Below, one piece after another: positions 7,650 through 23,142 of a DNA stretch of 64,000 bases. Where the stretch lies: positions 4,836,001-4,900,000 of the forward strand of contig CM035352.1 in assembly GCA_020137815.1 (NCBI GenBank), in the 5' to 3' direction. Both the position numbers and the translations under genes were made by a program. The notes beneath the pieces were generated by a model. The model made no database searches. It was given only the letters and a program-made list of their open reading frames with translations, and had not been told where the DNA came from. The first letter of the stretch is position 1. The number at the start of each line of letters is the position of its first letter. This stretch comes from Hormiphora californensis. Lineage: Eukaryota > Animalia > Ctenophora.

Positions 7650-10600
7650 CCTGTCTGCACAGTAATAATTGATCACCCTAAAATTATCCAGGTAGGATAG
7701 CTGCAGTATCTATCTAACTCCATACCTCCACACATGTGCAGGTAGGGTCGTGTAGCCAGTACCTGGTGGAAGATGATATGGTTGTGACGTGTGAACGATG
7801 TACCGCACTAAGATGCTCCCTATGCCTTCTCATCTCCAACAAACGCATGTTCCGGGTATGTATTTGAAGTTATAACTTTTCAAAAAAAACAATATTACAG
7901 TCGGACCCTAATTATTTACCGGCACCCGATTTACTGGAACCACGGGAGGATAGACTTCCTCCGAAATAAATATTGCGTTCTATGACTCGATGACAGTAAT
8001 GATCAAGTAGATACAGCAGCTGTCGATCTTGCTGCCTCTTTGGAGACCTAATTTTACACCTGTCACATTTTATAATGTATCCGAATAATATATGTCCTGT
8101 CAGATATCCCATCCGCCGAGATCTGTGCTTGGTACAGTGTGTGATCAGTCTGTCAGGTGATCGTACAGTACATGTTATGTTTTATTTTGAGAGCTTTGGT
8201 ATAGTAGTGTACATTTTGTGCTTCAAACTGTTCAATATAATGCCTACTAGAACATATTATTATGTTGTTGAAACCTGAAAGCATTACTTTGTAAACAGAT
8301 AGTGTTAAAAACTGGTCTCGATGAAAGCATACCTTGAAAACCCAGTTTTCTGAGCTAACTTGGCCTTGGCTTTAAAACAATTCCAATAGCTGCTTTCCTC
8401 AAGTATAGATTCATAAACTTGCTAAATATCTCCTTGAAGCCTCTAAATTTTAGTACGTAGTCTTCTAGAGGAAGTTGTATTCCAATTTAGGCAGTTCTAG
8501 GATTACAGGACTAAAATTACATGCCTACCTTAGCAACTCATTTTTGTAAGATCCTGTTTGCACCTCTGCTTTGGTATCGAAGTCACCTCACACTCAGGTC
8601 GCCGGGCGACCTTCGCGCGCGCTGGCAAGGGGTAACTTCGTAACCAAACCTCTGCTAGAGTATTTTGAGAGGCTATTATATTGTATGTGTTTTTGAAGTT
8701 GTTCACTTTGTAAAATTTCGAGTCGTCTATGCCTGATAAAACTCTGAACCACGCGAGTTCACCACAGGGGTCACTCCCTACACAGCTGATGAATTTTCTT
8801 ATTTATAGCAACTTGCATCTTCATGTGCCCCCAAAATAAAGAATATAATATTATATTCACATTTTCTAAGAAAACTTCCGGCCTGAGATGAGCCAGTCAT
8901 TGTCTCGCAGTATAATGCCTTGCATTATAAACTGTTCTACTATGTAAACACAGTGTTTTTTGCTTAACTTGAAATGAAGTTGTAAGCAAGTTGTATGACT
9001 GTTGATAGTCAATTAATTAACTTTGAATCAGGGTGCAGCACTAGATGCCTGTAGATCTAACTGTATAAACGTTTGTTCAGGACGGTGGGAGATCATATCA
9101 CATGGCTTGTGCACGGTGTTCCCTATGTCACGTGGCTTTCACAGAAACCGACCAGGATCCCCTAATGAGGAGCAACGGTAGGTAACAACTCTATACATCA
9201 CGTGATGCACAACTCCATATATGGGCATCACGTGATACACTGTGCTACTTCACCAATCTGTACAGTTTTTAATCCCGGAATTTATTGATAATTCACACAC
9301 GTCATGTACTACTGCAGGTAGCTATCGGCATGTTGAGTGTGTGGAACCAGTAAAGGCAGCTCCACCTGTAAACCCCTGCCACCTTCACGATGCAAGGACG
9401 TTACACCGGGAACCACCACCCAAATCTCTCCAACTTTCAGAACAGAGAATCCTTGAAATTCACAACGCTCTCAGAGAACAGTAGGTTTGGTTTGGGGTGG
9501 GTTGCTCATATCTGGGACTGTAAACAGTCACACAGCCAAGTCTTTCAGTTTGCCGACCGGGCGAGACATCATAGTGCATTGTAATAAACAACAGCAGTTG
9601 TAGCGCACTGGATATATTGTTATTGGTCTACATGGCGCCATAATGTATATCATGGCTTCCCGACAACTCAACACATGTTGCAGGCACTGTGTTAGCGAGC
9701 TGGGTTGGTCTTCTGTCCTGGAGGGAAGAGCAAGGAGGTGGGCTATACGCCTCTCTGTCGGTAGAAGCAAAGGGAAAATGGAGCTGAAACAACATGACAC
9801 TGTTTTTGGTAAGTTAAAAAATATAAACGGTTCAGCAGCAATTAGGACACATGTATAGCACGTCATAGGAACATAAAACATTAATTTATCGAGCTTATTA
9901 ATTGTACAATTAAGATTTCTTGTCTAGAAATTTCATCGCAACTCCCATTTGTTGAGCCCACCCTTATCCAACGAATGGATATAATGCTCCAATGTCCCTT
10001 AGATATTTATTGACAGTGGGAAGGGTTGAAATGTAGAAAGCACCGGCCGCCAACACAGCTCCTACCAAGGTCTTTTTGATAAGGGGCTTCCACGAACATA
10101 GAGCCGCCAATTCAGTATCTGTAAAAGAGATATGTTTATTATTTGGAAGCTACTTTACTTTGTTGAGTAAGGAGTGAGACACTCAACAAACTTTACTGGA
10201 CCCTTTATAAAAGAAGATTTAGAACAAGTTATTGGAGAAGAAGTTGGGATCAGGTTCTCCTTCAGATTATGAACAACACCTCCGAGGGTTTATATTTTGG
10301 CATCCAGCCAACAAATTCAACTGACCTGAATTATAGAGGGCCAACTCGTAGAAGCGTTCCTTCCATTTGCAGCCAACAAAGGGCGGGTAGCGTGTCATGT
10401 TAGCGAATTCCATTCCAGCGGGAACCTCGTGGACTCCCTTGTAGTTTGTGAAGCAGTCAAATGTTGCCTTACCATGATACCGACCTGAACGTAGGGGAAA
10501 ATATATCAAAACAATGTTGAGACTCTCGTCTCTCACACGCTCAGCAATAATTGCTAGTACAAGAGTTCCCCCAAAAGAGTAAGGGGTGATCCCCTACTCA

Positions 10601-22500: not shown

Positions 22501-23142
22501 ACTGTTCCTGAGCCAGTTCCAGAACCTGAGACTGTTCCAGATCCAGTTCCAGAACCTGAGACTGTTCCAGACCCAGTTCCAGAACCTGAGACTGTTCCAG
22601 AGTCAGTTCAAGAACCTGAGACTGTTGTAGAATCTAAAACAGTTCTAGAACCAGTTCCAGAACCAGTTCCAGAGCCCGTTCCAGAACCTGACACCACCAC
22701 AGAAACTGTTTCAGAACCTGAGACCACCACAGAAACTGTTCCTGAACCTGAGACTGTTCCAACCCCAGTTTCAGAACCTGAGACTGTCCCTGAGACGGTT
22801 CCGGAGCCAGTTCCAGAACCTAAGACGATTCCAGAACCAGTTTCAGAACCTGAGAGCTGCACCAGAGAAACTGTTCCTAAATCTGAGACTGTTCCAAAAC
22901 CAGTTTCCGAACCCGAGACCTCCGAAGCGGACGTGGATAAGACTGAGACTACTACCGAACAACCAGACAGAACTATAACAGAAACTGCTGAAGATATCAC
23001 TGAGGTTGATACTACCGAACACCTGATAACTGACACTGACAACTTTGACTACGAATCTGACTATGAACCGTGTGGGGCTGCGTCTGAAAATGGCTCCGTT
23101 TGCTCCACAGATGAGTTTCCCCATTGCACGACTAGAATTTAG
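7650..23142 (+). CDS. Large multi-exon protein: LIM domain(s) + CAP/SCP (GAPR-1/PR-1-like) domain + EPETVT repeats + YxxM array + Glu/Pro/Val/Thr-rich tail; 5' end unresolved
   Basis: Exons 7650-7691 (least certain), 7742-7855, 9081-9177, 9318-9480, 9684-9808, 15822-15913, 17085-23142; all GT-AG and phase-compatible. LIM: CSLC...[11 protein letters not shown]...[41 protein letters not shown]...HDTVFGQ...AVEKLIAE...[14 protein letters not shown]...FLILNYWP. One 1-nt insertion at ~21324 in the last exon. Confidence 0.72.
9964..14211 (-). CDS. ALDH3: Aldehyde dehydrogenase family 3 (fatty aldehyde dehydrogenase, ALDH3A2-like), 9 exons
   Basis: Exons 14211-14099, 13950-13806, 12775-12552, 12399-12329, 12233-12088, 11934-11635, 11523-11295, 10484-10326, 10118-9964. 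Motifs: [36 protein letters not shown], catalytic [27 protein letters not shown]. The last exon encodes a hydrophobic tail. Confidence 0.93.
12798..13608. mobile_element. Foldback/MITE-like element in ALDH intron 2 with a ~600-bp internal palindrome
   Basis: Terminal IR TAGTAGGGACGAAT / ATTCGTCCCTACTA. Long inverted arms at ~12990-13281 and ~13306-13598 with few mismatches. Confidence 0.8.
16411..16572. repeat. (GA)n-rich microsatellite
   Basis: Direct reading. Confidence 0.9.
17355..18440 (+). repeat. Coding 18-bp minisatellite (GAACCTGAGACAGTCACT; EPETVT), ~60 units
   Basis: Direct reading. Variant units recur with a 324-bp period (CATGAA at 17658 and 17982). Confidence 0.95.
18684..19087 (+). 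repeat. Coding 48-bp tandem repeat ([16 protein letters not shown]), 8 full units plus a partial
   Basis: Direct reading of DNA and translation. Confidence 0.95.

What the first reader, a model, noticed from the sequence alone, without database searches (positions are those of the whole stretch)
7650..23142. Hidden giant gene with an apparently novel architecture: LIM + degenerate CAP/SCP + acidic repeat rod + phosphotyrosine array
Seen: seven phase-compatible exons, most missed or fragmented by the ORF track, splice into LIM fingers followed by a CAP domain split over four exons and then ~2000 aa of repeats. Established: LIM domains target focal adhesions and strained actin, and most CAP proteins are secreted except GAPR-1/GLIPR2. 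The CAP GHxTQ histidine appears replaced (SDLEN) and GEN reads GQI. Inference: an intracellular scaffold coupling a cytoskeletal anchor, a non-catalytic CAP module, long PEVK-like disordered spacers and a kinase docking platform. I know of no described protein with this domain order.
Basis: partly seen in the sequence, partly recalled or inferred. Interest (0 to 1): 0.8.

Follow-up and report, generated by a model that had tools for sequence, protein, structure and literature searches.

The report
Comb-jelly LIM–CAP giant tyrosine scaffold
This stretch likely encodes one ~2,300-residue intracellular protein of a probable comb jelly, in which two LIM zinc-finger domains and a worn CAP domain (a pairing already listed, unstudied, for the comb jelly Mnemiopsis) are followed by long acidic repeats and a row of tyrosine motifs predicted to dock signalling proteins.

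Summary
Six of the seven exons stand. 7650-7691 is probably not an exon. Three upstream exons (3555-3699, 3941-4006, 4232-4344) give a second complete LIM domain. The 6-kb intron holds an intact antisense class 3 aldehyde dehydrogenase gene. A one-base frameshift near 21325 is probably an assembly error, since XPF in the same window has one too. The CAP match is firm for the N-terminal half, weak for the C-terminal end and absent for exon 15822-15913, which rests on splice signals. Two of the four CAP tetrad residues appear lost. Koch et al. 2012 (Table S1) already list LIM-LIM-CAP for Mnemiopsis ML064935a with the same spacing (LIM1 to CAP 151 residues), unclassified. Not found in print: the acidic rods and a 16-tyrosine array (10 YxxM, 2 YxN). 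Best reading: an intracellular phosphotyrosine docking scaffold (inferred). No RNA covers any junction of the gene, no orthologue sequence was retrieved and no fold was run.

The parts
3555..3699 (+). Likely first coding exon (acidic N-terminus, no signal peptide); an alternative start is the ATG at 3925
   Evidence: Donor at the 99th percentile, phase 1; in-frame stop just upstream. No RNA.
3941..4006 (+). Likely second exon (phase 1 to 1)
   Evidence: Acceptor 96th, donor 88th percentile.
4232..4344 (+).
   Evidence: Pfam LIM E 0.0032, model 1-35 of 58, below the curated cut-off; splice sites above the 99th percentile; completes a LIM pattern with 7742.
7650..7691 (+).
   Evidence: Acceptor at the 72nd percentile, 50-nt intron; including it destroys the LIM1 pattern.
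7742..7855 (+). Exon: end of LIM1 and start of LIM2
   Evidence: One X2 contig matches 7784-7838 with 7 differences in 55.
9081..9177 (+). Exon: middle of LIM2
   Evidence: Pfam LIM E 0.00058, model 19-40, below the cut-off.
9318..9480 (+). Exon: end of LIM2 (His at ligand 7), proline-rich linker, first CAP helix
   Evidence: Second best of 2402 six-frame pieces against the N-terminal CAP sub-profile; profile positions 1-8 of 131.
9684..9808 (+). Exon: second part of the CAP N-terminal half, with the first tetrad His kept
   Evidence: Best of 2402 pieces; profile 19-39 of 131, E 0.0038; His column.
9964..14211 (-). Nested antisense class 3 aldehyde dehydrogenase gene, nine exons, 513 aa, hydrophobic C-terminal segment; a separate gene inside the host intron
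   Evidence: Pfam Aldedh E 2.5e-23; best solved relatives are class 3 and fatty ALDHs; all GT-AG and open; an X2 contig skips exactly its 810-nt intron (table 5).
15822..15913 (+). Exon: middle of the CAP domain (predicted GEN strand and third helix)
   Evidence: Best splice score of 244 phase-compatible open candidates, 19.5 against 13.1 for the next. No CAP signal on its own.
17085..17351 (+). Start of the giant last exon: CAP C-terminal strands, then linker
   Evidence: Acceptor 99th percentile and the only strong one near the start of the ORF; profile 101-112 of 131, E 0.027; rank 12 of 1969 scored pieces.
17352..18440 (+). Acidic rod 1: about 60 copies of an 18-nt unit (EPETVT), 363 aa
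18441..19220 (+). Tyrosine array: 16 Tyr, 10 YxxM, 2 YxN, mostly 13-16 residues apart; eight lie in a 48-nt tandem repeat
19221..21324 (+). Ser-rich spacer and acidic rod 2 (E/V/P/S/T)
   Evidence: X1 oligo-dT contigs cover 19257-19407 and 19421-19571 with no differences, depth 3.
21325..21325 (+). Approximate place of a one-base frameshift, probably an assembly error
   Evidence: One base more than the internal copy at 21760; 17 of 17 repeat alignments across it are out of register by one, 14 of 14 others in register.
21326..23142 (+). Acidic rod 3 and a unique acidic tail with two Tyr; stop at 23140-23142
   Evidence: Open frame 21220-23142; composition; only a sub-threshold compositional Pfam hit to procyclin repeats.

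Best explanation
The window likely holds one nine-exon gene (3555 to 23142) for an intracellular protein of about 2,300 residues, with two LIM domains, a likely non-catalytic CAP domain, three acidic repeat rods and a tyrosine array, predicted to work as a phosphotyrosine docking scaffold. Mechanism: the LIM pair binds a partner at the cytoskeleton or an adhesion site (inferred from the family). The CAP domain, lacking the second His and first Glu of the tetrad, acts as a binding or oligomerising module and not as a metal site (residue loss seen in alignments, role inferred). The strongly negative rods stay disordered and extended, holding the array about 360 residues from the anchor and open to kinases (composition shown, behaviour inferred). 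A tyrosine kinase phosphorylates the acidic Tyr sites, and SH2 proteins then bind in numbers: PI3K p85-type at YxxM, Grb2-type at YxN (motifs shown, phosphorylation and binding untested). The organism is probably a ctenophore, and the gene a member of the LIM-CAP group listed for Mnemiopsis (inferred from domain order and spacing).
For: Gene: AG/GT ends and phases fit for nine exons; with a splice model trained on nine introns of other genes, the seven internal exons score at the 88th-99.9th percentile at both ends; two full LIM patterns. CAP: the joined exons align end to end with a profile of 58 bacterial PF00188 domains (probability 93.6, 117 columns); the N half scores 43.6 against at most 19.5 for 150 shuffles of the whole domain; 3 of 4 exons land in order on a CAP profile. 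Independent match: ML064935a has LIM at 9 and 68 and CAP at 160, spacings 59 and 92; the window model has 73, 133 and about 224, spacings 60 and 91. No hydrophobic segment fit for a signal peptide or membrane anchor (highest 19-residue hydropathy 1.43, inside a LIM). Array: outside the tandem block 6 of 8 Tyr have M/L/I at +3 (background 0.09, P 1e-5) and 16 of 32 upstream positions are D/E (background 0.25, P 0.002) (residue classes chosen after seeing the motifs). p85 binds tandem phosphotyrosines 10-30 residues apart (PMC6937578, passage); spacing here is 16. Nested genes are common in a ctenophore genome (2357 in 1654 hosts, PMC8527503, passage). Frameshift control: XPF at 58328-60716 also switches frame within residues contiguous in human XPF.
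Against: No RNA contig covers any junction of the gene. The CAP C half is weak: 16.7 against shuffles 10.1 +/- 2.3, 2 of 150 reaching it, and it adds nothing to the full score (N half plus shuffled C half scores as high in 150 of 150). Exon 15822-15913 ranks only 13th, 29th and 41st of 244 by CAP score in context. No single exon hit Pfam CAP or a solved CAP structure. No orthologue sequence was found, so orthology to ML064935a rests on a table of coordinates, and that table does not say whether it has repeats or tyrosines. Eight of the 16 Tyr are copies of one repeat. Rod 1 shows no residue-level constraint (16 of 18 variant types change the residue). Two LIMs with a short linker miss the strained-actin signature.
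Confidence: 0.55

Rival explanations
1. One LIM-CAP gene as modelled, but the tail is a mechanical or spacing element (an acidic, possibly calcium-binding entropic spring), and the tyrosine motifs are a by-product of repeat expansion or bind something other than SH2 domains, such as adaptin-type Yxx-hydrophobic receptors (recalled motif class).
For: About 1,500 of 2,300 residues are E/T/P/V rods; 8 of 16 Tyr come from one 48-nt repeat; rod residues are unconstrained. The same motifs fit Yxx-hydrophobic sorting signals (recall).
Against: The eight non-repeat Tyr keep the +3 hydrophobic and upstream acidic pattern; the rods hold 3 Tyr in about 1,500 residues against 16 in the 250-residue array.
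Confidence: 0.25
2. Two genes split by the ALDH gene: a short LIM-LIM protein with half a CAP domain ending after 9808, and a separate repeat protein from 15822 or 17085.
For: A whole gene lies between the halves; no RNA joins them; the statistical CAP signal lies almost wholly upstream of 9808.
Against: 9808 has a good donor, and 15822-15913 is the best of 244 bridging candidates with both phases right; the start of the last exon lands on the CAP C-terminus; ML064935a has a CAP hit at E 3.5e-12 at the same distance; nested genes are common in Hormiphora.
Confidence: 0.1
3. The frameshift near 21325 is real, so this allele makes a 1,728-residue protein without rod 3 and the tail, or the gene is decaying.
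For: The assembled sequence says so; no read covers the site; repeat arrays slip easily.
Against: The 604 codons after it stay open and in repeat register; XPF in the same window has a one-base shift and 38000-43000 is homopolymer junk, so the assembly is likely error-prone.
Confidence: 0.1

Closest known systems
Mnemiopsis leidyi ML064935a (GenBank JN615205), unclassified LIM protein, Koch et al. 2012, PMC3305314 Table S1
   Same: Order LIM-LIM-CAP, weaker second LIM, and spacing 59/92 against 60/91 residues here.
   Different: Sequence not seen, so identity, length and the presence of rods or a tyrosine array are unknown. Its CAP hit is strong (E 3.5e-12) while the one here looks more worn; LIM1 starts at residue 9 against 30 or 73. 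The table gives the Pfam 24 name 'CAP' without accession; that this is PF00188 is from recall, and PF00188 bears that name today.
Mnemiopsis leidyi ML46393a (JN615209), same table
   Same: LIM followed by CAP at 98 residues.
   Different: Has an N-terminal SH3 and one LIM hit near the C-terminal end.
Group 2 (intracellular) CAP proteins: human GAPR-1/GLIPR2, schistosome SmVAL6
   Same: No signal peptide, few cysteines in the domain (2); SmVAL6 also carries a long unrelated C-terminal extension (PMC3435950, passages).
   Different: GAPR-1 keeps both zinc-binding histidines (PMC6900432, passages); here the second is lost. No LIM or tyrosine array is described for them in the passages read.
Multisite phosphotyrosine docking proteins (BCAP; IRS, Gab and p130Cas from recall)
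   Same: Folded anchor at the N-terminus, long disordered body, clustered YxxM and YxN motifs at tandem-SH2 spacing.
   Different: The anchor here is LIM-LIM-CAP, not PH/PTB, SH3 or TIR; no homology was tested or is claimed. It works like them at most.
Zyxin/paxillin/FHL/testin strain-sensing LIM proteins
   Same: Tandem LIM domains joined to a long low-complexity region.
   Different: Two N-terminal LIMs, not three or more; shorter linker.

Membership tests
LIM superclass (PF00412) | Eight zinc ligands in the two-finger spacing | tested here: met
   Two full pattern matches at residues 73 and 133 of the revised model; LIM2 has His at ligand 7.
LIM superclass (PF00412) | Pfam score above the curated cut-off | tested here: inconclusive
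   Only single exons could be scanned: 18.1, 20.5 and 20.1 bits against a cut-off of 22.9 for a whole protein.
CAP superfamily (PF00188) | Profile match over the domain | tested here: inconclusive
   End-to-end alignment, probability 93.6, about 22 bits with a home-made HMM; signal firm for the N half only.
CAP superfamily (PF00188) | Alpha-beta-alpha sandwich fold | not testable with these tools
   The domain is split over four exons and no natural full-length relative was retrieved to fold.
CAP superfamily (PF00188) | Tetrad of two His and two Glu lining the cavity (PMC10189770) | tested here: not met
   First His kept and second His replaced. The GEN motif has no Glu-Asn match and reads GQI by eye; the aligners differ by a few columns there. 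A Glu stands near the expected end of helix 3. Filed as a degenerate CAP-like domain.
Group 2 intracellular CAP proteins | No signal peptide, no three conserved disulphides | tested here: met
   Acidic N-terminus at either start, no hydrophobic stretch by hydropathy (no signal-peptide predictor run); 2 Cys in the domain.
Group 2 intracellular CAP proteins | Phylogenetic placement with GAPR-1 | not tested
   No animal CAP sequences were held.
Strained-actin-binding LIM proteins | Three or more tandem LIMs with 7-8 residue linkers | tested here: not met
   Two LIMs, 4 residues between last and first ligand; no further copy found in the window by tblastn.
Mnemiopsis LIM-CAP group (ML064935a, ML46393a) | LIM-LIM-CAP order and spacing | tested here: met
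   LIM1 to CAP 151 residues in both.
Mnemiopsis LIM-CAP group (ML064935a, ML46393a) | Sequence orthology | not testable with these tools
   The FASTA supplements cannot be read, and the homology searches returned no such protein.
Multisite phosphotyrosine docking proteins | Clustered SH2-type Tyr motifs in a disordered acidic region | tested here: met
   10 YxxM and 2 YxN among 16 Tyr.
Multisite phosphotyrosine docking proteins | Phosphorylation and SH2 binding | not testable with these tools
   Needs experiment.
Titin PEVK-type spacers | P, E, V and K rich (recalled definition) | tested here: not met
   K about 2% or less, T and S high, strongly net negative.

The most novel reading that the evidence does not exclude
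Ctenophores built their own multisite docking protein by fusing a LIM pair to a disarmed CAP domain and growing, by tandem duplication, a ten-fold YxxM platform held on long acidic rods: a convergent counterpart of IRS/Gab/Cas scaffolds that ties an adhesion or cytoskeletal site to PI3K signalling, in a lineage-specific family so far listed only as unclassified.
Probability: 0.3. Interest if true: 0.65.

Novelty: new variant of a known kind. Interest (0 to 1): 0.4.

Why it matters
LIM-CAP fusions occur for two Mnemiopsis proteins and for no other row of a table of 265 LIM proteins from nine proteomes (the word CAP occurs twice in that file), and a search for their ids found no paper text on them. 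This window gives a second instance in what is probably another ctenophore, plus a tail that suggests a testable job: tyrosine kinase docking. If true, it would show an independent origin of a docking scaffold in the sister group of other animals and give an intracellular CAP domain a role in signalling. It also warns annotators: the gene is hidden by a nested gene and a likely assembly frameshift.

Tried and rejected
No whole genome is held. Homology searches found no relative: exon 9320-9478 among longer proteins (2 candidates, none scored); residues 20-108 of the long ORF (11 candidates, none); a three-exon LIM alignment (41 candidates, none); phmmer of 17085-17351 over 1.84 billion representatives gave one hit, a bacterial-type Ig-repeat protein judged spurious; a metagenome scan with 9320-9478 found none of 592 stretches; one with an ALDH exon gave 3 loci at 36-42% identity, none with a LIM-CAP match. 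These are short queries, so the blanks are weak. The Atlas did not answer. Single CAP exons found nothing in Pfam or the PDB. Only 2 runs were listed; run X1 gave no cover over 3900-16400 beyond a 34-nt repeat, and neither run covered 21325; lack of cover in contigs is no evidence against splicing. Direct splicing 9808 to the long ORF was rejected: all phase-1 acceptors there score below zero against 8.8 for 17085. An intron bridging the frameshift was rejected: 583 formal GT-AG options exist but their donors are almost all repeat-internal GTT/GTC-type sites. Antisense reading of rod 1 (two open minus frames) was rejected because all minus frames are closed in rods 2 and 3. Tyrosine sulfation was considered (acidic context, recall) and set aside for lack of a signal peptide. 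Earlier findings of the scan held nothing related. Paper searches for LIM with CAP/SCP in main texts gave 0, 0 and 2 unrelated papers.
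Full report
Observation. Six hold up. The first, 7650-7691, does not: with a splice model trained on eight introns of the nested ALDH gene and one of the upstream GPCR, its acceptor lies at the 72nd percentile of all AG sites in 3000-24000, and it would leave a 50-nt intron where the ALDH introns are 95 nt or longer. Reading upstream shows an exon at 4232-4344 that matches the first 35 positions of Pfam LIM (E 0.0032). 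Two further phase-compatible exons, 3555-3699 and 3941-4006, lead to an ATG; an ATG at 3925 is an alternative. Neither start looks like a signal peptide.

The CAP domain. The spliced protein could not be scanned against Pfam as a whole, so I built a profile from 58 bacterial PF00188 matches (loci L002, L003, L005-L060; L004, a second domain in the L002 frame, left out). The joined exons score about 22 bits and align end to end in hhalign (probability 93.6, 117 columns). Controls show where the signal sits. The N half (9410-9808) scores 43.6; 150 shuffles of the whole domain reach at most 19.5. The C half alone scores 16.7 against 10.1 +/- 2.3, reached by 2 of 150 shuffles, and lands on profile positions 97-139 of 142; it does not raise the full score. 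Among 2402 six-frame pieces of the window the two N-terminal exons rank first and second, at adjacent profile positions; the start of the last exon ranks 12th for the C-terminal sub-profile; exon 15822-15913 shows nothing. A second profile of ten domains gives the same order: 1-8, 19-39, no match, 101-112 of 131. Exon 15822-15913 therefore rests on splicing: it is the best of 244 open phase 1-to-0 candidates between 9809 and 17084 (19.5 against 13.1), though only 13th to 41st by CAP score. Of the His-Glu tetrad described in PMC10189770 (passages), the first His is kept and the second replaced; the GEN motif is altered, with some alignment doubt. The domain is best called degenerate and intracellular, like group 2 CAP proteins (PMC3435950, passages).

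The large intron. It holds an intact nine-exon, 513-aa gene on the minus strand, 14211 to 9964, a class 3 aldehyde dehydrogenase by Pfam and solved structures. One contig of run X2, about 85% identical, skips exactly its 810-nt seventh intron. This makes a two-gene reading thinkable, but nested genes are common in Hormiphora (2357 in 1654 hosts; PMC8527503, passages), and the CAP domain needs both sides.

The last exon. After the CAP end come rod 1 (about 60 copies of EPETVT), the tyrosine array, a Ser-rich spacer, rods 2 and 3 and a short acidic tail. The rods carry -0.24 to -0.29 charge per residue and little lysine, so they are polyacidic rather than PEVK-like. Near 21325 there is one base more than in the internal copy at 21760; all 17 repeat alignments across the site are out of register by one, all 14 others are in register. 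As assembled the protein ends at 1,728 residues; read through it would be about 2,320. XPF in the same window switches frame at a point that is contiguous in human XPF, and 38000-43000 is homopolymer junk, so an assembly error is likely. No read covers the site.

The tyrosine array. 18441-19220 has 16 Tyr: 10 YxxM, 2 YxN, mostly 13-16 residues apart. Eight are copies of a 48-nt unit. Of the other eight, 6 have M, L or I at +3 (background 0.09) and 16 of 32 upstream positions are acidic (background 0.25); the classes were chosen after seeing the motifs. p85 binds YxxM and tandem sites 10-30 residues apart (PMC6937578, passages). YxN as a Grb2 site and acidic context as a kinase preference are from recall. 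In rod 1, 16 of 18 variant types change the residue, so composition and length, not sequence, seem to matter there.

Expression. Only two runs were listed. X1, an oligo-dT seawater library, has two 151-nt contigs identical to 19257-19407 and 19421-19571 at depth 3 and nothing on 3900-16400 but a repeat. This is a weak sign that the large exon is transcribed; it may be one molecule, and DNA is not excluded. No junction of the gene was covered.

What is known. Main-text searches for LIM with CAP or SCP found nothing relevant. The LIM survey of Koch et al. 2012 (PMC3305314; passages of the main text, a search of six supplements, and part 4 of 5 of Table S1 read) lists under 'Unclassified' Mnemiopsis ML064935a with LIM at 9 and 68 and CAP at 160, and ML46393a with SH3, LIM and CAP. 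The window model has LIM at 73 and 133 and CAP at about 224: spacings 60 and 91 against 59 and 92. This supports the one-gene model and a ctenophore source, and removes the claim that the folded domain order is undescribed. The table lists only Pfam domains and shared motifs, so it cannot say whether the Mnemiopsis protein has rods or tyrosines. Its FASTA supplements (s001.fa, s006.fa) could not be read and may hold sequence that would allow a direct test. A search for five of the ids found 0 papers (supplements are not covered by that search). The strained-actin signature of three or more LIMs with 7-8 residue linkers (10.1101/2020.03.06.980649, passages) is not met; testin LIM1 is an exception (PMC8684727, passages). 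PMC6900432 was read in passages; other papers were seen only in search listings.

Verdict. A real gene, about 0.85 likely to be one transcript unit, of a LIM-CAP type already catalogued in a ctenophore but not studied. The acidic rods and the YxxM array are the part not found in print in my searches. The most likely function is a phosphotyrosine docking scaffold (0.55), inferred from motifs. New variant of a known kind; interest 0.4.

Noticed in passing
window 9964-14211 (-): Intact nine-exon class 3 aldehyde dehydrogenase with a hydrophobic C-terminal segment, nested antisense in the host intron; its stop lies 155 nt from the host donor at 9808.
   Followed up: yes
window 12990-13598: Long inverted repeat (arms 139 and 158 nt, 95-96% complementary) inside the second ALDH intron, like a miniature inverted-repeat element; X2 contigs pile on it.
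   Followed up: partly
window 58328-60716 (+): XPF/ERCC4 gene, apparently without introns, with a one-base frameshift near 58670.
   Followed up: yes
window 38000-43000: About 5 kb of homopolymer runs (G, A, T, C) that look like failed-read sequence in the assembly; the many long ORFs there are artefacts.
   Followed up: partly
window 23954-24333 (+): Small two-exon ORF (23954-24002, 24193-24333), 62 aa, that resembles an RIIa/Dpy-30 docking domain from recall; the second exon alone had no Pfam hit.
   Followed up: partly
window 746-2018 (+): Two-exon rhodopsin-family GPCR just upstream of the gene.
   Followed up: no
window 32886-36814 (-): LINE-type element with endonuclease, reverse transcriptase and RNase H, broken by frame changes near 35250-35340.
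   Followed up: no
window 61625-62872 (+): Single ORF with a membrane anchor, a von Willebrand type C-like domain and a family 8 glycosyltransferase domain, an unusual-looking pairing.
   Followed up: no
window 57700-58115 (+): Last two exons of another gene just before XPF; looks like the C-terminus of GLE1 from recall, not tested.
   Followed up: no
PMC3305314 Table S1 and tree: ML06737a and ML20602b have the same N-terminal LIM pair spacing and sit beside ML064935a in the printed tree; they may carry CAP domains too worn for Pfam.
   Followed up: no
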